A DNA stretch of 15,526 nt from Promethearchaeota archaeon (lineage in GTDB: Archaea > Asgardarchaeota > Lokiarchaeia > Sigyniarchaeales > SOKP01). Where the stretch lies: assembly GCA_029838195.1 (NCBI GenBank), contig JALGVJ010000064.1, positions 1-15,526 of the forward strand, read 5' to 3'. The position numbers and the translations under genes are program-made. Positions 288 to 14,829 of the stretch are shown here, one piece after another (position 1 is the stretch's first letter; each line of letters begins with the position of its first letter). Below the pieces are notes generated by a model. The model worked only from the letters and a program-made list of their open reading frames with translations, did not search any database and was not told the origin of the DNA.

Positions 288-415
288 TTGTCGGCATGAG
301 ATTTAAAAAACTTAAAAAGCAAGCCAAATTATAAACTTAAAAACACCCTCATTGTCGGCATGAGATTTAAAAAACTTAAAAAGCAAGCCAAATTATAAAC
401 TTAAAAACACCCTCA
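288..415. repeat. Perfect 64-bp tandem duplication (288-351 = 352-415)
   Basis: ttgtcggcatgagatttaaaaaacttaaaaagcaagccaaattataaacttaaaaacaccctca occurs twice, head to tail, with no mismatch. Confidence 0.97.
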
Positions 416-627: not shown

Positions 628-1050
628 CTATGGATCTTTTTAATTTCCAATATACTAAAGGAACGCCCCAAGGGCATCATCCAAGCCTATCTGAAGCGCT
701 GGACCATCGAAACGAGTTATCGGGACGAGTCCCAGGAGTTGCACTTGAAGGGGTGCATGTTTAGAAATATCGAAGGGCAGTATTGCTTTATTACCCTGGT
801 ATTTTTAGCGTACCGCCTCCTCACGTGGGCAGCTCGCTTGGGATTGTCATCCCCGTATCACCCGGATGTGGACACGTTGGGCAAGAAACGGGCGGCTTTT
901 CGCCGATTTCTTGAGGCAATCTTTGGCGCTTGGATTACTTCATTAAAAGAAGAATGCAAGGCGTGCAAGATGGCTCGCGTTATATATACGCTAATCCATG
1001 GAGGGAATCCGTATGTTTTAGCCCCCTTTAAGCGAGAAAGCCAAAATTAA
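628..1050 (+). pseudogene. C-terminal fragment of an IS4-superfamily (IS701/ISH3-like) DDE transposase
   Basis: The frame of ORF 739-1050 is open upstream to 598 and reads FLISNILKERPKGIIQAYLKRWTIETSYRDESQELHLKGCMFRNIEGQYCFITLVFLAY. It contains the Y-x2-RW-x-IE-x3-R motif with the third catalytic residue (E). The N-terminal two-thirds is missing. GC is higher than in the flanks. A probable right end ttgtcgaactttag lies at 1057-1070. Confidence 0.8.
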
Positions 1051-1438
1051 TAGGCCTTGTCGAACTTTAGTTAATAATTCCCTTTTTTAAAGAATGAAAT
1101 TTTACTTAATAATTCTAATATTTTTAGCCTACAATATTTATACTAATTCATAAAAAACGTTTTAATTAATATTAATTAATCCTTTCAAAATTTTCTTGAT
1201 TAAAGAAATTAAATTTTTTAGCGCTTCAAAATAATGATTAGATTAAATAATTTTTTAGATTTTTTACAAGAAAAATAGAAGGATTTTGTTAATTATTTTT
1301 GAATAAGGTTTAAAATTTTTAAAACTTAATCTAAAGTATGAATCAAATTGATATTACATTTATAATAACATCAATAACAATAACATGTATTAAATAAATT
1401 TTATTATAAAAGGCATAGCAAAGCTTACAAGAAAAAAA

Positions 1439-3808
1439 ATGTACGTAAAAATCAAAAAACTTAAACATAGAAAAAAAAAATCATTATTTTATTTTATTCT
1501 ACTACTTGTGTTATTCGAAATAATTTTTTCTAAATGTTTTTTTAAATTTTCGGGTATTTATGAAAAAGGAGTTGAAATTAATAATATCCTGGATGTTAAT
1601 AACAAAGATTCAAATCTCAATACGATAGCAGAATCTTCTCCTTATGATATATGGTGGAATGCTAGTTGGCATTATAGAGTACCCATAATAATATCATCAA
1701 ATCAAGATCTCCATGATTATCAAATACAAATTAATATTAATCTTACAGAGTTCCAAAATTTAGGATACATTAATGAAAATGGTAATGATATTCGTTTTAT
1801 TAATGAATCTAATAATGAACTTAATTTTTGGATCGAAGAAATGGGTGTTTTTGGTATGAATAGTACAATTTGGGTAAAGATACCTGAGATAAAAAGTCCT
1901 TTTACAAAGATATACATGTATTTTGGAAATCCAAATGTTGCGAGCAAATCAAATGGTACCAGAACATTTAACTTATTTGATGATTTTGAAAAATCAAATT
2001 TAGATTCAATATGGAGATTATCATCACCTCAAACTAATTATATAATTTCTAATGGAATATTAAGGATTAATTCAGGAGCTATTGGGTTAAATAATTCTCT
2101 AGATTTTAATATTCAAGATGGATATATAGTTGAATCTAAAATTTTATTTAATGAGCCCCCATTGGCAAATGTCTATTCAGGAGTAATACCTGAACTATCA
2201 TCCTCTAGATATACTACACTTAATAATGGAAATGAAGATGCAACTATTTTCTGGATGAGACAAAAAAATACTCAATCAATTTATTATTGGGTTGCGGATG
2301 GATCTACTACATCATATAATCTTATCAATGGAGTTAGTTTAGAATGGGTTTCAACGGAATATATTTGGTATTTATCAGGAATTTCAGTTATTGGTGGAAA
2401 TTCTGATAGTACAATACAATTATGGAAAAATAGAGAAAATCTAAAAACTTTAACAGGTGTTTATTGGAATGATGCCATTAAATTTGTATCTTTAGGTCAT
2501 TTTAACGGAGAAATGAAGGATTGCCAAGATACATCATATGATTGGATAAGGATTAGGAAATATATCTTAGATGAACCAAAAATCACTTTTGGCGAACCTG
2601 AAAAAATTGAGTATAAGATAACATGTTATGATTTAGATGGAAGGCGAGTATCAAACGCTAAAGTTTTTATTACAAACAAGACTTTTCCTTTTCTTAATAA
2701 ATCGGGTATAACAAATATAAATGGAGAAGTTGTTTTTGTAAATGTTTCAAGGACCGGAATTTATAACATCACGGTGAATTATACCTCGCAAAATGGACTC
2801 TATACGGAAACAGTGTATTCTAAGAACAATATTCGATTATATGATTTTACCGAATTAGAGCTTTATCTTAATTTATGGACCATTGATTTCGATGTAATTG
2901 ATTGGGATAATAATACCATGGATTATGGATATGTAGTAGTGTACAAAGATATTCATAAGACCCAGCCCTTGGCAAACATCACGTTGCAAAGCGGCACGGG
3001 AAAAGCTACATTTCGATGGATTAATAAATCGTATTATACTTATGACGTGTACTATCGAAATGAAGATTATTTTCAACGAGATACCTTGATCAACAATGGA
3101 ATGATTCAGAGAAAAAATAAAAAGAGAAATCAAGTTTTTTACGTAAATCAAACTAATATATATTCCAAAAATAGGTTGGAATATCGTGTTGAACAAACCA
3201 TCTGGGCAGAAGGTTCGGATGAAATTGAATTAGGACATATTCGGATAATTAATGCAACTATTAATTTAAACAACATGGAAGATAATGTATCTAGCGTTGA
3301 GGTATTTTACGTTGATTCTAATGGAGTTAACAAGATTAATGAAGCTAGCAAGACCTATTCTACAACGACTACTCAAGATACGATTAAAATTAACACGATA
3401 AATCAATATGATATGTTTGGATTAAAAATAATCGTAGAAGGTGGCAACTCTTCCAGATGTAATGGGACAATTGACCTACATTGGGTTGAGACAACCACTC
3501 CTATTGTCCAAGTAAACATGTCGAAAATGCACATTAAAGTGGAGGATGGGGGAATCGGCGTTGTAGGGGCAATTGTTAGAATTTGGAACGGCTCCGTTAA
3601 TACGGGACAATCCATCATCAATCTGACCACCTCCAGTGGAGAGGTATATGGTGTAAAAGGTTATGCGTATGGTACCATCCATAAGATTGAATTCTGGTAT
3701 CTCATAGGAACGAATTATAATATCACGATTGATATTGGAACTCAACAACAAGTTAGATTTAATGTGTCATATTCAATATTCAAATCCAGCTCAACCCATC
3801 TCGGATGA
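1439..3808 (+). CDS. DUF2341-domain cell-surface glycoprotein, N-terminal part of a frameshifted gene (1439-5402)
   Basis: Basic N-terminus plus hydrophobic signal/anchor (SLFYFILLLVLFEIIF); DUF2341 motifs WWNASWHYRVPI, DIRF, LNFWIE, IWVKIP, IYMYFGNP, FDDFE; lectin-like beta domain ending DWIRIRKY; prealbumin/carboxypeptidase-regulatory-like beta repeats (YDLDGRRVSNAKV...TNINGEVVF...YNITVNY); many N-x-S/T sequons. Confidence 0.85.
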   Translation: MYVKIKKLKHRKKKSLFYFILLLVLFEIIFSKCFFKFSGIYEKGVEINNILDVNNKDSNLNTIAESSPYDIWWNASWHYRVPIIISSNQDLHDYQIQININLTEFQNLGYINENGNDIRFINESNNELNFWIEEMGVFGMNSTIWVKIPEIKSPFTKIYMYFGNPNVASKSNGTRTFNLFDDFEKSNLDSIWRLSSPQTNYIISNGILRINSGAIGLNNSLDFNIQDGYIVESKILFNEPPLANVYSGVIPELSSSRYTTLNNGNEDATIFWMRQKNTQSIYYWVADGSTTSYNLINGVSLEWVSTEYIWYLSGISVIGGNSDSTIQLWKNRENLKTLTGVYWNDAIKFVSLGHFNGEMKDCQDTSYDWIRIRKYILDEPKITFGEPEKIEYKITCYDLDGRRVSNAKVFITNKTFPFLNKSGITNINGEVVFVNVSRTGIYNITVNYTSQNGLYTETVYSKNNIRLYDFTELELYLNLWTIDFDVIDWDNNTMDYGYVVVYKDIHKTQPLANITLQSGTGKATFRWINKSYYTYDVYYRNEDYFQRDTLINNGMIQRKNKKRNQVFYVNQTNIYSKNRLEYRVEQTIWAEGSDEIELGHIRIINATINLNNMEDNVSSVEVFYVDSNGVNKINEASKTYSTTTTQDTIKINTINQYDMFGLKIIVEGGNSSRCNGTIDLHWVETTTPIVQVNMSKMHIKVEDGGIGVVGAIVRIWNGSVNTGQSIINLTTSSGEVYGVKGYAYGTIHKIEFWYLIGTNYNITIDIGTQQQVRFNVSYSIFKSSSTHLG

Positions 3809-5402
3809 AAATATACTGTGGTATAATTATACATTATTAAGAAATTCTTCATTAATATTTGTTTTAAATGACACTAATAAAATTTATACTAATTTTACTC
3901 ATGCTCATGGGGATACAGACGTGCTATGGAATAGCACCATGTCTTATAGTGTTAACTTCTCTTATACTGAAGATGGAGGAATTAGTTGGTATGAAGTCAC
4001 CCCTTCTGCAGAAGTGTTATGTTCTGTATATATTTGGGGAGCATCACCAATATTATTATACCAAAAAAAAATGAATTATCAAGGTGATGGAAATTTTACC
4101 TTGGAATTTAATTCTAATATTTTTCCCGCAGGTACTATAAGTGAAAGTTATATAGTTAAGATTACCGGAGAATATATAGGATTTAATATTCCTTCACCAG
4201 TTTTTTTTAATGTTTCAATTAAAGCATTACCTACTGAATTAGAATTTTATAATTACCAGAATATATCAGGTTCAAGTATTAAGGAAATTAAACAGTACTA
4301 TAATGAAATCTTTAACATCTCAGTTAAATATAAAATTAAAGGTGGTCAAAATGGAATAGAAGATGCGAATTTAACCTATCATTGGCAGTTTTCAACGACA
4401 CCATTATCAATAACTGCTGATCCATTGAACCCAGGATTTTATACATTTTCAATTAATACTTTATTAGTGAATAATATTGGCAAATTCAATATAACAGTAT
4501 CAGCAAGTAAATTTAATTATTCCTCAATAATCACTAATTTTACATTGATAATTTTATCCAGACCTACTAAAATAAATGGATATTCAAATTTACTTTATAT
4601 AAATAAAACAATATGGGCGGGAAATGATTTTTTAATGTCGTTTGAATATATAGATTCCTTAACAGAAAATAGAATATCAAAAACTGATAAAGCTTACTTT
4701 TATTGGACAAAAATAGTTAATGATGTTCTTCAACAATTCAGTTCTAATATTGATTTGGAAAAAGATTCTAATAATTTATATATTTTAGATTTTAATGCTT
4801 CTGAAAAAAAAATCGGAACTTACGTTTTATATTTATTTTTCGAGAAAAATTTTTATGATACAAAAAGCGTTGTTATTAATTTAGAAATTATTGAACGTAT
4901 TTTTTCGGTCGAGGTGACTCTAAATAATAAAGTAACCACAACTATTCAAGTAACAAAGGGAACACCTGTAAAAATCAAGCTCAAGATTACAGATCTCTCA
5001 CGCTCCAATAAACCACTGTCCGGGGCAAGAATTATCTTATATATTGATGGTACTTCAAAAAATTTTACTATAAATGAAATAGAAAATACAGGAATTTATA
5101 AATTAACTTTAAACACTTCTGATCCTGATTATCAAGCGTTTTTTGTTCCGCAGACCTTAACGGGTAATTTCACGATTTTCAAGGAGAATTATGAAATCCA
5201 ATCTATACCATTTAAATTAACGATAAATATGGAAGAAATTATTCCCGGTTTTCCAAGTATTTATTTCATTTTATTAATTACTGGGATTACAGGTGTTTCT
5301 GTTGGTTTAATAATAGATCATTATCCTAAATCAATAAAATCTGAACACATTCAAGATCAAAATAGTGAATTAAAAAATTACATTAAAAAAAAATCATCTT
5401 GA
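3729..5402 (+). CDS. C-terminal part of the same surface glycoprotein: Ig-like beta repeats plus C-terminal IPGF-TM membrane anchor
   Basis: Overlaps the upstream ORF by 80 bp, has no signal peptide of its own, same Asn/Thr/Ile/Tyr-rich sequon-dense composition, and ends MEEIIPGFPSIYFILLITGITGVSVGLII plus a charged tail. The real coding part probably begins at ~3777. Confidence 0.8.
   Translation: MILELNNKLDLMCHIQYSNPAQPISDENILWYNYTLLRNSSLIFVLNDTNKIYTNFTHAHGDTDVLWNSTMSYSVNFSYTEDGGISWYEVTPSAEVLCSVYIWGASPILLYQKKMNYQGDGNFTLEFNSNIFPAGTISESYIVKITGEYIGFNIPSPVFFNVSIKALPTELEFYNYQNISGSSIKEIKQYYNEIFNISVKYKIKGGQNGIEDANLTYHWQFSTTPLSITADPLNPGFYTFSINTLLVNNIGKFNITVSASKFNYSSIITNFTLIILSRPTKINGYSNLLYINKTIWAGNDFLMSFEYIDSLTENRISKTDKAYFYWTKIVNDVLQQFSSNIDLEKDSNNLYILDFNASEKKIGTYVLYLFFEKNFYDTKSVVINLEIIERIFSVEVTLNNKVTTTIQVTKGTPVKIKLKITDLSRSNKPLSGARIILYIDGTSKNFTINEIENTGIYKLTLNTSDPDYQAFFVPQTLTGNFTIFKENYEIQSIPFKLTINMEEIIPGFPSIYFILLITGITGVSVGLIIDHYPKSIKSEHIQDQNSELKNYIKKKSS
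3769..3783 (+). repeat. 7-bp tandem duplication (tattcaa x2) causing the frameshift
   Basis: tattcaa at 3770-3776 and 3777-3783. Deleting one copy joins the frame of 1439 to the frame of 3729 (...RFNVSYSNPAQPISDEN...), giving one 1318-aa ORF. Confidence 0.85.
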
Positions 5403-5525
5403 ATTCATGAAATCAACAAATATTTTCTTCTCCCAGTAAAATTATTAGAAATGATGATATCGGGTGCGTTAGAAATTTTCTAGTTAGATTAATTATAATT
5501 CATAAAAAATAATACTTATAGTTTT

Positions 5526-6197
5526 GTAATTATAAAGAATTCTGATCAAAATATGGGTTATTAATACTAATTAATTAATCTACCTGATGAAATAAATTGG
5601 GATGATCAATGGTTCAAAACCTGGTATCCGTTCAAGAACGTCGATCCTCAAAACGCACGTTTAGCCGGTAACACGAAGAAAAAGCACTCTTTTGAACCTT
5701 TTATCCACTACCCTGCGCTATCGATACGTTTCCTAAATTATTGCTTGAAAACGGTTTAAAAGACGCTCGCTTTCAGCACAGGGGTTATCTTTCCTAAAAG
5801 CACCAGGTGTAAGGCTTTTCCGAAGTCCATGTCATGTTTCTTACAGGTCTGGTGGAGAGACAGGTATAAAGTAAAAGAGTCCATGACCTCCTCGCTCTTG
5901 AAATCGTAGCTTGTTTTTCGTATGATGATCGCGAGCTTTTTTCATGCTTTACAGCGATAGCGAAATCGATTTGTTCTTCAAGCGGTCGTCTCCATGTGTC
6001 TGGCAGGAAGTGAGCCAAGTACTGTTCTGCTCTAAACTCAAGATACTTTTTGGCTAAAATGAAAAGCCTGAAAAGTAATAAAAAATGAAGGAGGTAATAA
6101 ACCAACATGTCATGGAGATATTACATATCTTGATATAGCAAATAGAATATCACATAGAAAATATATTTATAAAGGACTCAGAATACTTTATAATTAC
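5526..6197 (-). mobile_element. Non-autonomous, internally deleted IS66-family element (672 bp, MITE-like)
   Basis: 20-bp TIRs with one mismatch: gtaattataaagaattctga (5526-5545) and tcagaatactttataattac (6178-6197), with GTAA termini typical of IS66. Encloses transposase N- and C-terminal remnants. No target-site duplication visible. Confidence 0.85.
5756..6108 (-). pseudogene. IS66 transposase remnant: ~57-aa N-terminus joined out of frame to the last 60 aa
   Basis: 5938->5756 reads KLAIIIRKTSYDFKSEEVMDSFTLYLSLHQTCKKHDMDFGKALHLVLLGKITPVLKASVF*. It aligns without gaps (17/60 identical) to RPFVVQRKVSGNFISPEVMKIYGIHMSLYRTCKRNDVNYEEVIIPLLKGDTAELLRLLGL of ORF 11563-12339. Junction is in the A6 run near 5937-5942. 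Confidence 0.85.
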
Positions 6198-6350
6198 AAA
6201 TAAATTTTTCATAAAAAATATGGAAAAAAAAGCATATAAGAAAATCTTCATGATCCTTATTAAAAATAAAATATTTATGAGAAATAAAAAGAAAATAGTC
6301 GTTACTTGTTCTCGAATAGATAGCAAAAAGAAATTTTTCCCATTCTTGGA

Positions 6351-7382
6351 ATGAATGCAGTGAAAAATCCTCCAAAAATCTCTATCATCTTTCCAATCTT
6401 TAATGGTGAGCATTTTTTATCGCGAAATTTAGATTCTATTAAAAGGTTAATCAATTTAAATGAAATTGAATTAATTCTAATTGATAATAATTCAAAAGAT
6501 TCCAGTATTGAAATCATAAACTCATATACAAACTCTATCAACATAAAAATAATTAAAAATCGTATTAATCAAGGTTTTGTAAGAGCATGTAATTTAGGCG
6601 TTTTAATTTCAAAAGGAAAATATGTTTTTATCACAAATCAAGATGTTATTTTTCCCTCTGATTTTTTTGTTGAATTATTGAAAATTTATAATCGATTTGA
6701 AAAAAAAGGAAATTTAGTGATTTCTCCATCTTTAATTTTTGAAAATGATGGAATTCATTATTATGGAGCTAAAATACATATTTTGGGTTTTTCTTATACG
6801 CCTGAAATTGGAAAAGGATTACCAAAACAAAAAATAATTAAAAAAACGCAACGATTTTCAGGAGGAACTCTATTTATCCAACGTAATACTTTCTTGAAAA
6901 TGGGTGGCTTTGATAAAAGATTCTTCATGTATTATGAAGATACGGATTTATCTCTAAGATTTTTACGAAAAGGTATTGTCATGTATACGACAAGTTATCC
7001 CTATTTAATTCACCAAAAACATGAGCTTACATTTAATGATTTTAGATATTTTTTACTCGAGCGTAATCGCTATATTGTTTTTTGTAAAAATATCGATGGA
7101 TTTAAAAAATTAATTCCAATATTTCTGATTACAGAAATTCTGCTCATCTTTCAATCCATTCTCATGAGAAAATTTAGAATTAGAATTAGAATATATTATG
7201 AGCTCCTACATAACTTAAAAAGTTTTAAGGAACTCCGCCGTGAATCTAAAAAACAAATACCTCTCATACCTTATCAAAATCTCTCAAGGACTCTTGATGT
7301 CGCTTTGCTAGGAAATTTAAAAAAAAATACCATGTTCTTAAAGTTATTAAAAATTTATAACAGTCTATTAAAATTGATTTAA
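6351..7382 (+). CDS. Glycosyltransferase family 2 (WbbL/rhamnosyltransferase-like subgroup)
   Basis: ISIIFPIFNG, LIDNNSKDSS, NQGFVRACNLG, ITNQD, GGFDKRFFMYYEDTDLSLR motifs. Confidence 0.93.
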   Translation: MNAVKNPPKISIIFPIFNGEHFLSRNLDSIKRLINLNEIELILIDNNSKDSSIEIINSYTNSINIKIIKNRINQGFVRACNLGVLISKGKYVFITNQDVIFPSDFFVELLKIYNRFEKKGNLVISPSLIFENDGIHYYGAKIHILGFSYTPEIGKGLPKQKIIKKTQRFSGGTLFIQRNTFLKMGGFDKRFFMYYEDTDLSLRFLRKGIVMYTTSYPYLIHQKHELTFNDFRYFLLERNRYIVFCKNIDGFKKLIPIFLITEILLIFQSILMRKFRIRIRIYYELLHNLKSFKELRRESKKQIPLIPYQNLSRTLDVALLGNLKKNTMFLKLLKIYNSLLKLI

Positions 7383-7456
7383 AAAAAGTTTATTTCTTGT
7401 ACTATTTTAAAATTAAATTCACATGATTCCTTTTATTTATATGAAAAACAAGAGTT

Positions 7457-8320
7457 TTATTCTCGGCTAAAAAAATATTTAATTAAAGCATCTAATTTTC
7501 TGTGAAAGGTTTTTGATGAAAAAATGAAATTCATCAATTTTTTAATTGTATATATAATAATACAAATTAATATTGAGCGTATTAATTCCATTAATTTTAC
7601 TCTAGAAACGCCATGGAATCGAGGATGAAGTGTAATAGGGATTTCTTTTATTCTCAGATTTCTAACAGCTGCTTCAAATAACATTTGAGTACATAATCCA
7701 TAATTCTTAAAGAGAGAATTTTCAAAAATTTTTATACTTTTTCTATTAAAAGCTCTAAATCCACTCTGATTATTAGAAATTTTTTGACGATACATTAACC
7801 AAAGCAATGTTTCAATAGATTTTTCACCAACTCGCGTGTGTAGGGGGACATCATAATTACATTTCCCTAAGTACCGTGAGCCAATAACTATATCTGCTTG
7901 ATCATTAATTATTGGAGTGAGCATTTTGGGAATATCTCGTGGATCGTGCTGACCATCTGAATCAATTGTTATAATAAAATCTCCTGTAGATTTATTGATA
8001 CCCGTGAGAATTGCAGCCCCATAACCCATATTTTCTTCGTGTTGAATAAGTTTTATCTTTTTTCTTATTTTCAGTAAATTTTTTACGCTATTATCCGTTG
8101 ATCCATCATCAACAACAATTATTTCATATAGCGAAGAATGCGGTATTTTTTCTATCACTTTTCCAATTGTTTTTTCTTCATTATATAAAGGAACTACAAC
8201 GGATATTTGAAAAGAATTTAATCTAATATTTTTACATGCTTTATTATATTTATTTTTAGGAAGATCTGAAGGTGCTATATCATAGATTTCTTTATTAACC
8301 TCAGATTTTGAATAAAACAT
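7457..8320 (-). CDS. Glycosyltransferase family 2, dolichol/polyprenol-phosphate hexose synthase-like
   Basis: SVVVPLYNEEKTI, IVVDDGSTD, NMGYGAA, TIDSDGQHDP, ADIVIGSR, QSGFRAF, IKEIPI motifs. Confidence 0.93.
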   Translation of the reverse strand: MFYSKSEVNKEIYDIAPSDLPKNKYNKACKNIRLNSFQISVVVPLYNEEKTIGKVIEKIPHSSLYEIIVVDDGSTDNSVKNLLKIRKKIKLIQHEENMGYGAAILTGINKSTGDFIITIDSDGQHDPRDIPKMLTPIINDQADIVIGSRYLGKCNYDVPLHTRVGEKSIETLLWLMYRQKISNNQSGFRAFNRKSIKIFENSLFKNYGLCTQMLFEAAVRNLRIKEIPITLHPRFHGVSRVKLMELIRSILICIIIYTIKKLMNFIFSSKTFHRKLDALIKYFFSRE

Positions 8321-8519
8321 TATTAGTAGAAAAAAGTATTTTTAAATTAATCAATTATTACAATCTTAATAATAATTATACTAATATGTTTTATATTTAT
8401 TTTGTTTTCTTAAAATCGAATATAAAATCAATTTTAATATCTTATCATGAAATTAATTTAGAGAGTTTAATATCAATCATTTTTAATTATTATTGAGAAG
8501 AATTGCATGAAATTTTATT

Positions 8520-9548
8520 TCATTTTTCTTCCGGCATTTTGAAACTTAATTTTTCTAACTTGATATTTAAAACAAACGAAGAAGTCAAACCATAAATAAA
8601 AACATAAGAAGTTCTAATCACATGATCTAGAATAAAAATTGAAAGTAAATTATTGTACGGCATTGTTGGATAAAAGAGAAAAATAATAAACGCTCCTACA
8701 TTTTCAGAAAGAACCCAACCACCAGGCGTTATGGGAAATGTTTTAGTAAAAAATAAAATGATTTGTGAAATAATGATAATAAAAGCATTAATATCATATC
8801 CTGCAAGGAAAAAAAGCAATACCAATGTAAATGACTCTAAAATCCATATTGGCAAACTAAGAAATAATACAATCGCTGCTTTTTTTTTATTTTTTCTAAA
8901 ATCGTCTATGCCTTCGAGGAAATTCTCAAGAAACTTTTCTAAAATATTTCTTAATTTCTTAGAAACAAGGGAGACAATTCTCAAAAACCATTGGGTTTTC
9001 AAAAATAAGAGCGCAACTAATATTAAACCTGTTAAAATTATAAATGCTCCGATCATTAAAGGAACTTGTAAATTTATCACTGAAGTTCCTTGGACATTAT
9101 TTATATACATGAAAGTTAAAGCACAAGAAGAAATTACGAATAATATTAACAAATCAATAAATCTTTCAATAGCCACACCACATGTCGCTTTACTTAAATT
9201 AATTGTTTTTTCTTTTTGATACATGATTTCTATTCTAATAAGATCCCCAATCTTGCCGGGTGTTAACTCATTTATGGCCCATCCAATTCCAAAAGCACCT
9301 AATAGCGGTAAATATTTCGGCCTAAGATTTAATGCATTAAAAATTAGTCTTAAACGAAAAGATCTTAGTAAAAACACTCCGGAATAAATTAAAAAAAAAA
9401 ATACAATACCTAAAACTGAGATTTTTTTTAAATTAAAAATGATATTTTGAATATCAGCAAAAATAAACATAATTATTATTAAAATTAAGGTCAATATTCC
9501 AATTAATATTCTTTTAAGGGAATCTCTCATTTTAAAGTATTTCTTCAA
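8520..9548 (-). CDS. UPF0104 / lysylphosphatidylglycerol-synthase TM-domain (flippase-like) membrane protein
   Basis: About 8 hydrophobic segments; family motifs LRSFR, NELTPGKIGDLIR, ERFIDLL, PITPGG. Start may be the ATG at 9530 rather than the TTG at 9548. Confidence 0.92.
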   Translation of the reverse strand: MKKYFKMRDSLKRILIGILTLILIIIMFIFADIQNIIFNLKKISVLGIVFFFLIYSGVFLLRSFRLRLIFNALNLRPKYLPLLGAFGIGWAINELTPGKIGDLIRIEIMYQKEKTINLSKATCGVAIERFIDLLILFVISSCALTFMYINNVQGTSVINLQVPLMIGAFIILTGLILVALLFLKTQWFLRIVSLVSKKLRNILEKFLENFLEGIDDFRKNKKKAAIVLFLSLPIWILESFTLVLLFFLAGYDINAFIIIISQIILFFTKTFPITPGGWVLSENVGAFIIFLFYPTMPYNNLLSIFILDHVIRTSYVFIYGLTSSFVLNIKLEKLSFKMPEEK

Positions 9549-9627: not shown

Positions 9628-9645
9628 GTAATACGAAGGTATTAT
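9628..9645 (+). repeat. 18-bp quasi-palindromic motif, copy A (gtaatacgaaggtattat)
   Basis: 17/18 match to consensus RTAATACGAAGATATTAY; 90 bp upstream of the RHH gene. Confidence 0.7.
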
Positions 9646-10228: not shown

Positions 10229-10495
10229 TTGAAGGAAGCATAAAGCAGGTATCAGGATTATGAGGATCATTTCCTGGGGGAAAAACCACTCGTCTTATCC
10301 AAGAAAAATAGGTTTTTCGTGAATAATTATCTTTTTAAAGTGAAGAAGCGGAGCGATGGAGCTTACAGAAACCATAATTCCACCTTAAAAAGCTTTTTTG
10401 ATTACATTGATAAACCAGCCGATAAGATCACCAAGTTTGACGTGATAAATTATTTTAACGATGTTTTGGATAAAAAGGACATTAAAAAGAGGTAA
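10229..10495 (+). pseudogene. N-terminal core-binding (SAM-like) domain of a tyrosine recombinase/integrase, truncated by IS66
   Basis: Not in the ORF track. TTG at 10229, TAA at codon 5, then SRYQDYEDHFLGEKPLVLSKKNRFFVNNYLFKVKKRSDGAYRNHNSTLKSFFDYIDKPADKITKFDVINYFNDVLDKKDIKKR. The YL..K.RS...RN..S.LK.FF.Y.....IT..DV.NY pattern resembles XerC/D-type N-domains. The frame runs into the IS66 left TIR at 10492. Confidence 0.65.
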
Positions 10496-10541
10496 ATATT
10501 TAGTTTTTTGATCCTTACTTATTCTTCTTTCAATCGTAACA

Positions 10542-10548
10542 TTTATAT
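10542..10548 (+). promoter_or_regulatory. Putative archaeal TATA box for a leaderless transposase transcript
   Basis: tttatat lies 23-29 bp upstream of the ATG at 10571. Confidence 0.4.
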
Positions 10549-10570
10549 CTTCTAGTTAATTCGTAATAGC

Positions 10571-12339
10571 ATGGGTCTATGGCTCCCGCTCTCACTTCTC
10601 TTTGTCGTAATATTAATGCTCGGATACCACGCGCTCCGACAAAAAGGAAAGAAATATAGAAAAGCAATTAAAGATCATCAAGCCCAATTAATAGCCAAAG
10701 ACTCCAAACTACAAGAAATAAACTCCAAATTACAAGAGAAAGACTCCGAGAATCTACAGCTTAAGGAAGAGCTTCTGAAGATTAAATCGGGTAAAGAGAA
10801 ATTGAAAGATAACCTCGAAAAGTATCGAAAAGAGAATAAGCGTCTTCAGGAAGCCACCAAGAAAAAGAAAAGGCAACGCTCAGATGCCGGGAGACACCGG
10901 GATGTTTCAGCCCCGTCCAATAAAAGAACGGGCAAGCCGATAGGAGCTAAAGGCGGCGGCTTGAAAAATCCCAACCCGAAAGAGATAGACTACACGCGGC
11001 ATTGGCGCTTAGATTCTTGTCCTAAATGCAATGGTTCGCTTAAAAATTCCAACCCGATTGATCACCACGACCATCATATTCGGGATTTAGAGAAGCTAAA
11101 AAGGGGAATTCGTTTGGTTTATACAAAACACGTGATTTATCGCTACAAGTGCCCGCACTGTAAGTGCCTCGTCTCGAAGTATTTTGGAAAATTGAAAAAT
11201 GCCCGCTATGGCATCGGCATGATCGCTTTCGTGTTATACGAGCGTTTAGAACGCGGTGGCTCGTGGGAAGGCATTAGAACGACCTTAAATCACGTGATTC
11301 ACACGAAAGAATGTGTCCCCACCGTTAAAGCGTTCATCGATTGGATTCGAAAATACGAGACCGAGATGTGGGAGGTGTATCACGCGTTCTTGGATGCAAT
11401 TGGTCAGTCGTCTTTTGCCCACGTTGACGAGACGGGCATTCCGATGGACGGTCAAAATTGGTGGCTCTGGGTTATCGTTGCCACGGAAGTCGTTCTTTAC
11501 TTGCCTTCAGAAACCCGTGGTAGTGATGCCATGAAGACATCTTTCACGAATATAAGGGCATCTTGCTGTCCGATTTTTGGAGCGCTTATAATAAGTTAAA
11601 CGTCGAGCAACAGAAATGTTTGGAGCATTTAGTAAGGGAATTGAGGAAAATCAATCTGAGGGCAATAGACAAGCGCGACAAAGCGAAAAAGAAACTCGAA
11701 AAGGATGACGAGCTACGGGCTCGAGAAATTGTCCCTGATGAGACCAAGCTGAAGAAACAGGGGCGTCTTGCGAAACAACCCGAACCGCTGACGGATAAGA
11801 AGCGGGCGAAATTAGAAGAAATCATCGCCCAAAGCGAGAAGATCAGCTGCCAGCTGACGGCCTTTTACGAGTTCTTTCAACAAGCGTGGAAAAAGGACGG
11901 TAACGACATGAGCGTGCATGCTCCAATCGACAAGCGGATAAGCATTTCCGAGGCGGAGTTAAGGTTGCAATTGCTAATTCAAGAGGTCATGGAAGAAGGT
12001 CCTGCTAACGCGGATATAGAGCGAATGATAAAGCGCTTTGAAAAGTATGGCCCGTGCTTGTTTACCTACTTGGAAAACCCAAACATCATGCCCGATAATA
12101 ACGCCGCAGAGCGAGCCATTCGCCCTTTTGTGGTACAACGTAAGGTTTCGGGTAATTTTATAAGCCCCGAGGTCATGAAGATTTACGGAATTCACATGTC
12201 GCTTTATCGGACCTGTAAAAGGAATGATGTTAATTACGAGGAGGTCATCATCCCCTTGCTTAAAGGGGATACGGCCGAACTCTTGCGATTGTTAGGTCTA
12301 AGGGAAGGCGAGCCGCCGCCTGAAATTGAATGCAAGTGA
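10571..12339 (+). pseudogene. IS66 DDE transposase (TnpC-like, ~589 aa) with a 1-bp frameshift at ~11530-11536
   Basis: Coiled coil, GKPIGAKG linker, CPKC...CPHC zinc finger, HVDETG, then in the next frame DIFHEYKGILLSDFWSAY, QKCLEHLVRE and PDNNAAERAIRPFVVQRK. ORFs 10571-11599 and 11563-12339 join if one base is added. Confidence 0.92.
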
Positions 12340-12591
12340 AATCCTATTTTCTTGTCTTGATTTTCGTCATTTATTTGACTTATTTTGCTTAGTGGACTTT
12401 AGAACCATTTATCTCTAAAACCCAGCAGTTCATGATTATAGACTAAAAAATAAAACGAATTTGCTTCTCCTTTTTTGAAATAACGAAAAAAATTTAACGG
12501 AATTTAGCTTTTTGCAAATAATAAGATAAAGTATTGATTGGATCAAAAAACTAAATATTTACCCTCCTTTTTTATATTTTTTTCGAATATT

Positions 12592-12615: not shown

Positions 12616-12992
12616 TAGAAAGATAAATCTCCTATATAAATCTAAAACTTGGGATTTAGGATGATTAAATTTCTGAAAGTGGTCAATAGTCTTACTCTTT
12701 TTGATCCACTTTATAAGATAGTAAGGCTCATCCTAGAAAAAAGTTTGAGACACAGAATAATTAATATTCATTTATTTCTAATATTAATTTTAATAGATGA
12801 AATAGATATTTTTTTAAGAAGATTTCTTTTAAAGATGATGTAGCGGGCAATACGTTTAATTCTTCGTCATTTAAAAAAGTTATTTCCATTGATTGAAAAA
12901 ATGGGAAGTTATTTTCGATCAACATCCTCGTTGCGTGAATCGATAATGAATGCATTAAAAAAATGTATTGCTAGTATATTGCAAGTACTGAT

Positions 12993-13010
12993 ATAATACG
13001 AAGATATTAT
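12993..13010 (+). repeat. 18-bp quasi-palindromic motif, copy B (ataatacgaagatattat)
   Basis: Exact consensus; arms extend to TATAATA/TATTATA around the spacer CGAAGA. Confidence 0.75.
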
Positions 13011-13875: not shown

Positions 13876-14476
<601 letters not shown>

Positions 14477-14811
14477 TTAATATTACTTTAAATATATATA
14501 TCTTTTTATAATATAAAACCAAAAGAAATATCTGTGCGAAATGAAATTCTAAAATGGTTGTTCTTTGTATAGAGCGCTTAATATATTAAAAAAGATTAAA
14601 AATAGTGTAGTTTTTAGGATTTAGAGCTGGAACCATTATTATTGTTCTTAAACCTTCTTTTCCGACATTATTTCAATTAAATCTTACTCTTTAATAACAT
14701 TACCTATCAAATAAAAAATAACAAAAACAAAAAATAATAAGGAAAAATCATATAAAGTTAGAAAATGAAAAAAGTGAAAAAAAAGGACAACACTCGTACC
14801 ACAAAAGTATG

Positions 14812-14829
14812 GTAATACGAAGATCTTAC
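14812..14829 (+). repeat. 18-bp quasi-palindromic motif, copy C (gtaatacgaagatcttac)
   Basis: 17/18 match to consensus. Confidence 0.7.

What the first reader, a model, noticed from the sequence alone, without database searches (positions are those of the whole stretch)
10571..10870. IS66 transposases with an N-terminal membrane-anchor-like helix, in two independent elements
Seen: the transposase begins MGLWLPLSLLFVVILMLGYHALRQKGKKYRK (about 18 hydrophobic residues then a basic cluster) before a long coiled coil, 79 bp inside the TIR with a TATA-like box at leaderless spacing. The diverged element at 5526-6197 begins MLVYYLLHFLLLFRLFILAKK, 89 bp inside its TIR. Established: IS66 TnpC proteins are described as soluble (coiled coil, zinc finger, DDE). 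Inference: a lineage of membrane-tethered transposases, with the catalytic part cytoplasmic by the positive-inside rule. Tethering could sequester or regulate activity, or couple transposition to membrane-associated DNA uptake or vesicles. I cannot confirm novelty without a search.
Basis: partly seen in the sequence, partly recalled or inferred. Interest (0 to 1): 0.7.

Follow-up and report, generated by a model that had tools for sequence, protein, structure and literature searches.

The report
Membrane-anchored IS66 transposases in Asgard archaea
A whole clade of jumping-gene enzymes (IS66-family transposases) from Asgard archaea starts with a conserved membrane-spanning helix. These DNA-cutting enzymes are therefore probably made tethered to the inside of the cell membrane, which I found described in no paper; both copies in this window are broken.

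Summary
Element A (10492-12562) is a single-ORF IS66-family element. Its transposase ORF starts at 10571, 79 bp inside the GTAA end. A conserved TATA-like box lies about 29 nt upstream. The ORF opens with about 20 hydrophobic residues, a basic cluster and a long helix.

Element B (5526-6197) opens the same way, 89 bp inside its end. Both window copies are defective:
- A has a 1-nt deletion near 11534.
- B is an internally deleted remnant of an intact 1987-bp element elsewhere in the genome. That element encodes a 555-aa transposase and has a perfect 8-bp target duplication.

The helix is a clade-wide protein feature:
- All 25 helix-bearing representatives fall in one clade of 31.
- None of 86 other IS66 relatives has the helix.
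- Helix sequences cannot be aligned between subfamilies, yet all are hydrophobic with positive charge on the C-terminal side.
- Named carriers are Promethearchaeota, Sigynarchaeota and Helarchaeota.
- The DDE triad, zinc finger, terminal repeats and 8-bp duplications are kept, so these are working elements.

Best reading: an N-out/C-in membrane anchor on an otherwise ordinary ISBst12-type transposase. What tethering achieves is inference. No paper describing it was found. This scan noted the same thing in other genomes (e1-5628212, e1-5620657).

The parts
10492..12562 (+). Element A: a single-ORF IS66-family (ISBst12-type) insertion sequence, 2071 bp. It is the only copy of this subfamily in the genome and has no target duplication.
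   Evidence: Terminal repeats and boundary. GC is 41-46% against about 27% in the surroundings. Single copy in the genome.
10492..10514 (+). Left terminal inverted repeat of A, GTAAATATTTAGTTTTTTGATCC
   Evidence: Nearly invariant in nine loci, while the flanks before it diverge.
12540..12562 (-). Right terminal inverted repeat of A
10542..10549 (+). TATA-like box TTTATATC, 29 nt before the ATG. This spacing fits a leaderless archaeal transcript.
   Evidence: Conserved in nine loci. The reading of the spacing rests on general knowledge of archaeal promoters.
10571..10636 (+). Start codon and predicted membrane helix, residues 1-22
   Evidence: AF2 of homologue P0001 gives a helix from residue 2.
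10637..10663 (+). Basic cluster RQKGKKYRK directly after the helix (the positive-inside side)
   Evidence: Net charge +7 in the 15 residues after the helix.
10664..10870 (+). Long helical, coiled-coil-like stalk with heptad-like SxLQEKD repeats whose number varies between copies
   Evidence: AF2 gives a continuous helix 2-100 in P0001.
10571..11599 (+). Transposase ORF, first part: helix, stalk, basic linker, zinc finger and start of the DDE domain. It runs out of frame after about 11534.
   Evidence: PF03050 matches residues 213-326. 77-85% identical to intact 560-590 aa homologues.
11531..11538 (+). Site of the 1-nt deletion that splits the gene. The window reads ATG-AAGAC; intact copies read GTGAAAGAT or similar.
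   Evidence: Alignment with five intact homologues.
11527..12339 (+). Transposase, second part in the -1 frame: rest of the DDE domain and the C-terminal helices.
   Evidence: PF03050 matches residues 139-203 of ORF 11563-12339..
5526..6197 (-). Element B: an internally deleted, non-autonomous remnant of a second IS66 subfamily. Both terminal repeats are kept. No target duplication.
   Evidence: Its pieces match G000:C34 at 87-94% with about 1.3 kb missing. Terminal repeats, flanks.
5794..6108 (-). Remnant ORF of B (104 aa). Its first ~20 residues, MLVYYLLHFLLLFRLFILAKK, are the helix of the parent transposase.

Best explanation
Both elements belong to an Asgard-archaeal clade of single-ORF IS66-family (ISBst12-type) insertion sequences. 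Their transposase has gained a single-pass signal-anchor helix at the extreme N-terminus.

Proposed mechanism (inferred):
1. The mRNA is probably leaderless and starts at the ATG.
2. The first ~20 residues insert into the membrane with only 0-8 residues outside. The basic cluster holds the rest inside.
3. A ~80-residue helical stalk and a ~25-residue disordered basic linker then hold the zinc finger and an intact DDE catalytic domain some 10-15 nm below the cytoplasmic face.
4. The enzyme should therefore work only on DNA that comes near the membrane.

The most likely consequence is spatial restriction. Co-translational insertion keeps the new enzyme close to its own gene and ends (cis preference), and two-dimensional confinement keeps activity low.

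Shown here: the architecture, its conservation, its restriction to one clade, and that the elements transpose. Inferred: membrane insertion, topology, and the effect on transposition. In this window, copy A is inactivated by a frameshift and copy B is a deletion remnant.
For: Start codon:
- In related loci the helix ATG is the first start codon after an in-frame stop 4-10 codons upstream.
- There is no conserved downstream Met. In 20 of 56 helix-bearing proteins the next Met lies beyond the zinc finger.
- A conserved TATA-like box sits 29 nt upstream.

Helix as a protein feature:
- Homologues at 60-85% identity begin MG[LI]W[LF] plus about 15 hydrophobic residues plus RQK. So do relatives at 31-33% identity.
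- Representatives at 50% identity or less carry unrelated hydrophobic N-termini followed by K/R clusters.
- The second subfamily, 38% identical, has its own version.

Tree:
- All 25 helix-bearing rows fall in one clade of 31 (FastTree, 98), and 0 of 86 fall outside.
- IQ-TREE recovers the same split (SH-aLRT 94).
- At least two of the six helix-less rows inside the clade look like gene-call artefacts: P0063 starts mid-helix, and P0087 has an upstream ORF with a hydrophobic N-terminus.

Energetics and charge:
- Summed insertion energy averages -2.6 against at least +5.6 in 92 controls.
- Net charge is +3.3 after the helix and about 0 before it.
- Hydropathy is kept above a neutral-mutation simulation, 2.10 against 0.88.

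Structure: AF2 (pLDDT 83.7) gives one helix over residues 2-100, a disordered stretch at 100-123, then the folded body. Foldseek finds DDE transposases: ISCth4, Hermes, P element.

Still transposases:
- PF03050 and NF033517 score above their cut-offs.
- D280, D329, E508 and four zinc-finger Cys are invariant.
- 8-bp target duplications occur in L015, L021, L029, L036 and the C34 copy.

Hosts: Promethearchaeota, Sigynarchaeota and Helarchaeota.
Against: - No experiment exists, and no dedicated topology predictor was available.
- dN/dS of the helix codons is 0.59 against 0.14-0.18 elsewhere, and dS there is lower (0.65 against 1.4-1.7). Residue identity is therefore weakly constrained, and part of the MGLWL conservation may be a constraint on the DNA or RNA at the 5' end.
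- In the neutral simulation, 8% of runs reach the observed hydropathy, and the pairs are not independent.
- The window's own helix scores only marginally (-0.06) because of Pro6 and Ser8.
- Both window copies are defective, so nothing here is expressed as a working enzyme.
- A few clade members (P0078, P0094) seem truly to lack the helix.
- The functional consequence (cis restriction) has no direct support. The existence of a deletion derivative with intact ends (element B) shows only that such remnants arise, not whether they are mobilised in trans.
Confidence: 0.7

Rival explanations
1. The hydrophobic helix is translated but does not span the membrane. It could act as a self-association or aggregation module, an autoinhibitory plug, or a degradation or instability signal that keeps transposase levels low.
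For: - AF2 draws it as the continuous start of the 100-residue helix, not as a separate element.
- Canonical IS66 transposases use an N-terminal leucine zipper for oligomerisation (general knowledge).
- Relaxed dN/dS of 0.59 shows that only bulk hydrophobicity matters.
Against: - A stretch of 19-22 uninterrupted apolar residues has no polar face.
- Aromatic residues sit at both ends of the helix.
- The positive cluster lies strictly on one side, and the N-tail is near zero length. Together these are the signature of a signal anchor, not of a soluble zipper.
- The pattern is kept across unalignable sequences.
Confidence: 0.12
2. The helix is not part of the functional protein. Translation starts downstream, possibly at a non-ATG codon. 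The hydrophobic reading would then be a by-product of T-rich, DNA-level-constrained sequence at the IS end (promoter, transposase-binding sites).
For: - Synonymous divergence is lower in these codons, and the first five codons are nearly invariant at the DNA level.
- Gene callers chose downstream starts in several homologues, for example P0005-P0007 and P0010-P0013.
- The window copy has Met16.
Against: - There is no conserved alternative Met, and in 20 of 56 proteins none lies before the zinc finger.
- The frame stays open and hydrophobic in subfamilies whose DNA cannot be aligned, including sequences whose residue make-up (Ala/Gly/Arg-rich, e.g. P0061, P0064, P0100) suggests higher-GC DNA.
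- A stop lies just upstream of the ATG.
- The TATA spacing points at this ATG.
- The feature tracks one protein clade.
Confidence: 0.08
3. The segment is a cleavable signal peptide, and the transposase (or a part of it) is exported.
For: It is an N-terminal hydrophobic segment at the very start of the protein.
Against: - There is no positively charged n-region.
- The hydrophobic core is 19-22 residues, against 7-15 in signal peptides.
- There is no small-x-small cleavage motif.
- The strong positive cluster follows the core, which favours the reverse orientation.
- An exported DNA transposase makes no biological sense.
Confidence: 0.03

Closest known systems
IS66 family, ISBst12 group (single-ORF elements; Gourbeyre, Siguier and Chandler 2010, as cited in PMC12898284)
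   Same: - One transposase ORF, with no tnpA or tnpB.
- Terminal repeats start with GTAA.
- 8-bp target duplications.
- The same domain order: coiled coil, basic region, zinc finger, DDE.
- PF03050 and NF033517 score above their cut-offs.
   Different: - About 20 extra hydrophobic residues plus a basic cluster precede the coiled coil.
- The elements are about 2.0 kb with 555-620 aa proteins, against 449 aa for ISDge4 (PMC12898284).
- The host range is Asgard archaea.
- None of 86 other IS66 representatives has the helix.
Canonical three-ORF IS66 / IS679 elements (TnpA, TnpB, TnpC)
   Same: Homologous DDE transposase (TnpC) with a leucine-zipper-like N-terminus and a zinc finger.
   Different: There are no accessory ORFs here. 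As far as the survey here shows, TnpC has no membrane helix.
Tn5/IS50 transposase and inhibitor, reported to associate with the inner membrane (from memory; no paper found in the library)
   Same: A precedent for a DDE transposase found at the membrane.
   Different: That association is peripheral and sequence-unspecific, not a dedicated N-terminal membrane-spanning helix conserved across a clade.
Membrane-anchored DNA-binding proteins such as ToxR, TcpP and CadC (general knowledge)
   Same: A single-pass anchor holds a cytoplasmic DNA-binding domain, so the target DNA must come to the membrane. This is what the element would work like.
   Different: Those are transcription regulators with a sensory outer domain and the anchor in the middle or at the C-terminus. 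Here there is essentially no outer domain and the cargo is a DNA-cutting enzyme. This is an analogy, not membership.
Earlier notes of this scan on other genomes (e1-5628212, e1-5620657)
   Same: Same architecture and same clade: an IS66 transposase in Asgard archaea that starts with a signal-anchor-like helix.
   Different: Different genomes and copies. The window here adds two defective copies of two subfamilies side by side, and an intact parent in the same genome.

Membership tests
IS66 family transposase | DDE_Tnp_IS66 domain (Pfam PF03050) above the gathering score | tested here: met
   Window halves score 35.2 and 60.3 bits against a cut-off of 23.1. Intact relatives score 118.9 and 123.2 bits.
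IS66 family transposase | NCBIfam equivalog NF033517 above its cut-off | tested here: met
   P0001 scores 208 bits and the C34 protein 227 bits against a cut-off of 180. The match covers residues ~110-559, so the helix and stalk lie outside the model.
IS66 family transposase | Catalytic DDE triad and CxxC...CxxC zinc finger | tested here: met
   D280, D329, E508 and C144, C147, C188, C191 are invariant in 19 diverse members. Assigning these residues to the triad rests on motif knowledge (DETG, SD..Y, NNxAER). PF13005 gives a weak hit in the C34 protein.
IS66 family element | Terminal inverted repeats that begin 5'-GTAA | tested here: met
   Both window elements and all related loci.
IS66 family element | 8-bp target-site duplication | tested here: inconclusive
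   Perfect 8-bp duplications flank L015, L021, L029, L036 and the intact C34 copy. Neither window copy has one.
ISBst12 group of IS66 | A single transposase ORF, with no tnpA or tnpB | tested here: met
   No other ORF of 60 aa or more lies on the coding strand within 10492-12562, apart from the two halves and one overlapping out-of-frame ORF. The C34 element holds one 555-aa ORF.
Single-pass signal-anchor (N-out/C-in) membrane protein | An uninterrupted apolar segment of about 19 residues or more at the N-terminus | tested here: met
   Best 19-residue Kyte-Doolittle mean is 1.9-3.2. Summed insertion energy averages -2.6 against at least +5.6 in controls.
Single-pass signal-anchor (N-out/C-in) membrane protein | Positive-inside charge asymmetry | tested here: met
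   Mean net charge is +3.3 in the 15 residues after the helix and -0.04 in an N-flank of 0-8 residues.
Single-pass signal-anchor (N-out/C-in) membrane protein | Demonstrated membrane insertion and topology | not testable with these tools
   This needs fractionation or reporter fusions. No TMHMM, DeepTMHMM or Phobius was available.

The most novel reading that the evidence does not exclude
Membrane tethering is a previously unrecognised way of controlling a DDE transposase. Co-translational insertion would tie the enzyme to the membrane next to its own gene, which enforces action in cis. It would also bias insertion towards membrane-proximal DNA, such as genes for membrane or secreted proteins, or DNA entering the cell. 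The length of the variable heptad-repeat stalk would set the reach.
Probability: 0.3. Interest if true: 0.8.

Novelty: new variant of a known kind. Interest (0 to 1): 0.62.

Why it matters
In the survey here no IS66 relative outside this clade has a membrane helix, and I found no paper describing one. Control of transposases is usually explained by expression level, cis preference, host factors or inhibitor proteins.

A deep clade of still-mobile elements that has kept a membrane anchor implies that location in the cell is under selection for a transposase. That idea is directly testable: add or remove the helix, then measure localisation, transposition frequency, cis against trans action, and target choice. 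It may also bear on how mobile elements behave in Asgard archaea, whose cell and membrane architecture is unusual.

There is also a practical point for annotation. Gene callers often cut off this helix or choose a downstream start, as in several homologues here.

Tried and rejected
- Dimer prediction: two copies of residues 1-125 were folded to see whether the stalk pairs in parallel. The result was no verdict (score 0.35, mark 0.42). It counts neither for nor against.
- Upstream DNA of helix-less clade members: P0062 and P0085 returned no DNA. Only P0087 could be read.
- Host identification by 16S: no SSU rRNA is present in this MAG. The host is inferred from the named carriers of the closest copies.
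- Literature: seven full-text searches found nothing relevant. They combined IS66 with transmembrane; Asgard with IS66; transposase with membrane-anchored; N-terminal transmembrane with insertion sequence; IS50 with membrane association; ISBst12; and Lokiarchaeota with transposase and transmembrane.
- Programmed frameshift in copy A: rejected. There is no slippery motif, and all five intact homologues carry one more base at that spot.
- Signal-peptide reading: rejected on charge and length.
- General Asgard habit: another repeated IS in the same genome (fragment at 630-1090) encodes a transposase with no such helix, so this is not a habit of all transposases in this genome.
- Not attempted: a test for enrichment of membrane-protein genes next to insertions. 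There are too few loci with enough flank, and no gene caller was available.

Full report
**What is in the window**

The window is low in GC (about 27%) with two islands of higher GC. It is contig 25 of a 4.5-Mb, 94-contig MAG.

Element A spans 10492-12562. An alignment of nine related loci places the left boundary exactly before an invariant GTAAATATTTAGTTTTTTGATCC, where the flanks diverge. The inverted copy ends at 12562. The only gene inside is an IS66-family transposase (PF03050).

That gene is split into 10571-11599 and 11563-12339. Five intact homologues all carry one more base at about 11534, and there is no slippery motif. The split is therefore a 1-nt deletion (or a base-calling error), not a programmed shift. 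A is the only copy of its subfamily in the genome and has no target duplication.

Element B spans 5526-6197 and has 23-nt terminal repeats that are 96% complementary. It is an internally deleted remnant. Its pieces match an intact 1987-bp element on contig 34 of the same genome at 87-94%, with about 1.3 kb missing. The contig-34 element encodes an uninterrupted 555-aa transposase and is flanked by a perfect 8-bp duplication, CTTAATTT.

**The observation**

- The ORF of A begins MGLWLPLSLLFVVILMLGYHALRQKGKKYRK. Its ATG at 10571 lies 79 bp inside the end.
- TTTATATC at 10542-10549 lies 29 nt upstream and is conserved in all nine loci. By general knowledge of archaeal promoters, this spacing puts the transcript start at or next to the ATG.
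- The remnant ORF of B begins MLVYYLLHFLLLFRLFILAKK, 89 bp inside its end. The intact parent begins MLVYYILHFLLLFGLFILAKKY. A TATA-like CTATATC/CTTATAC sits at a similar distance.

**Is the helix a real protein feature?**

1. Close homologues. The 5.8-billion-protein search returned 60 relatives, mostly 560-590 aa. Nearly all that are complete at the N-terminus begin MG[LI]W[LF], about 15 apolar residues, then RQK. This includes relatives only 31-33% identical overall.
2. Distant representatives. The search of 50%-identity representatives brought in far more distant members whose N-termini cannot be aligned with these or with each other: MDVFPILTLLLLAAFIASWALKKAGRR, MNTRTGFPIIAIFLLVLLIMFACALFRRRGR, MVIFISIILLNIIILGIISVIY, MVIWIVFCIILIFIMISLFYFYQRH, MPRVMAVIIILVAVVIIQCFFILWQRNK and others. 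All are apolar and are followed by K/R.
3. Trees. On a tree of 117 IS66 relatives, all 25 helix-bearing rows fall in one clade of 31 (support 98), and none of the 86 rows outside has a helix. An IQ-TREE run on 57 rows recovers the same split (SH-aLRT 94).
4. Helix-less rows inside the clade. There are six. P0063 starts in mid-helix, which is a gene-call truncation. P0087 is preceded, 45 nt upstream, by an ORF with a hydrophobic N-terminus and a coiled coil. P0078 and P0094 may be true losses.
5. Start codon. In the loci with DNA, the helix ATG is the first start codon after an in-frame stop 4-10 codons upstream. No downstream Met is conserved. In 20 of 56 helix-bearing proteins the next Met lies beyond the zinc finger.

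**Does it look like a membrane anchor?**

The minimum among 92 helix-less relatives is +5.6.
- The stretch before the helix is 0-8 residues long with net charge about 0. The 15 residues after it carry +3.3 on average. This is the pattern of an N-out/C-in signal anchor, not of a cleavable signal peptide.
- AF2 on P0001 with a 19-row alignment (pLDDT 83.7) gives one helix from residue 2 to 100, a disordered basic stretch at 100-123, then the folded body.
- Foldseek matches that body to DDE transposases with an inserted helical domain: ISCth4, Hermes and P element. No IS66 transposase structure turned up among the matches.

**Caveats from the codon analysis**

Within the MGLWL subfamily, dN/dS of the helix codons is 0.59, against 0.18 and 0.14 for the stalk and the body. 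dS is lower in the helix codons, 0.65 against 1.4-1.7. Residue identity is therefore only weakly constrained, as expected for an anchor. Part of the conservation of the first five codons is probably at the nucleic-acid level, for example at the transcript start.

A neutral-mutation simulation gives a mean hydropathy of 0.88 against 2.10 observed. Still, 8% of simulated sequences reach the observed value, and the pairs are not independent. The stronger argument is the retention of hydrophobicity across subfamilies that cannot be aligned.

**Are these working transposons?**

- PF03050 and the NCBIfam equivalog NF033517 score above their cut-offs, with the match starting near residue 110-119.
- D280, D329, E508 and the four zinc-finger cysteines are invariant in 19 diverse members.
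- Ends begin GTAA.
- Perfect 8-bp duplications flank copies in L015, L021, L029, L036 and on contig 34.
- Many homologues sit on contigs of 2-3 kb, about the length of the element. This is what assemblies produce at multi-copy repeats.
- With a single ORF, the elements fit the ISBst12 group as defined in PMC12898284 and the works it cites.

**Hosts and spread**

Named carriers of clade members are Promethearchaeota, Candidatus Sigynarchaeum or Sigynarchaeota, and Helarchaeota. One copy on a contig binned as Thermotogae is nearly identical to one in an uncultured archaeon and is probably misbinned. More distant, helix-less relatives are bacterial: Planctomycetota, Victivallaceae and others.

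In a sample of 201 genomes of the window's phylum, 8 have a match at E <= 1e-20. Six are in the window's own family (the window's genome included). Copy numbers are 1-5, and many copies are decayed. MAGs under-represent repeats.

The window's genome holds one intact copy (contig 34), the two defective copies here, a decayed copy with stops (contig 14) and an N-terminal fragment (contig 89).

**Mechanism**

Shown: the domain order is helix, basic cluster, ~80-residue helical stalk, disordered basic linker, zinc finger, DDE. The stalk holds a variable number of heptad-like SxLQEKD repeats.

Inferred: the helix is inserted co-translationally, so the enzyme hangs from the cytoplasmic face of the membrane. 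It can then act only on DNA near the membrane. I think the most likely effect is spatial restriction of activity: cis preference through coupled transcription, translation and insertion, and a low overall rate. Targeting of membrane-proximal or incoming DNA is possible but unsupported.

I put 0.7 on a genuine membrane anchor on a functional transposase. I put less, about 0.3, on the specific regulatory consequence.

**Comparison with what is known, and novelty**

These are members of the IS66 family, ISBst12 group, on every sequence criterion tested. The difference is the N-terminal anchor. None of 86 other IS66 representatives has one, and seven full-text searches found no description of it.

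It works like membrane-anchored DNA-binding proteins of the ToxR/CadC type only by analogy. This scan has already reported the same architecture in other genomes (e1-5628212, e1-5620657), so this window is a further instance, not a first sighting. I rate it a new variant of a known kind.

Noticed in passing
window 630-1090 (ORF 739-1050): This GC-rich segment is a fragment of another repeated element, with at least five further copies at 88-90% identity in the genome. A fuller copy on contig 72 (L128) carries frameshifted ORFs that I take, unscanned, to be its transposase; none has an N-terminal hydrophobic helix.
   Followed up: partly
window 288-415: Two perfect tandem copies of a 64-bp unit, with a third diverged partial copy at 165-194.
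   Followed up: no
window 12945-13009 and 14764-14828 (also 9628-9644, 6350-6367): Two short motifs (AATGAATGCA..AAAAA and the quasi-palindrome GTAATACGAAGGTATTA) recur with the same 1819-bp spacing. They flank the DUF5615/DUF433 gene pair at 13876-14470.
   Followed up: no
window 10700-10760; L014, L025, L030 N-terminal regions: The stalk after the helix holds heptad-like SxLQEKD repeats. Their number differs between copies, from about 2 in the window to 6 or more in L025, so stalk length varies.
   Followed up: partly
window 10484-10491 / 12563-12570; L025, L030, L035 flanks: Several copies lack a direct 8-bp duplication. Instead their flanks are roughly reverse complements of each other (for example AAAAAGAG ... 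CCTCCTTTTT). Other copies have perfect 8-bp duplications. Unexplained; possibly insertion into AT-rich palindromic targets.
   Followed up: no
L035 (contig QNAR01000216.1, binned as Thermotogae): It carries a helix-bearing element nearly identical to one in an uncultured archaeon (L033). This is probably a binning error rather than transfer to a bacterium.
   Followed up: no
L113:204-1133 upstream of P0087: In one clade member the hydrophobic N-terminus and a long coiled coil lie in a separate 309-aa ORF, 45 nt upstream of the transposase ORF. This is either a split gene or a two-ORF variant.
   Followed up: partly
window 1439-9548: Both defective elements lie in a surface-glycan island. It holds a large DUF2341 protein and a second large protein with many N-glycosylation sequons and a C-terminal anchor, two GT2 glycosyltransferases, and an LPG_synthase_TM-type membrane protein.
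   Followed up: no
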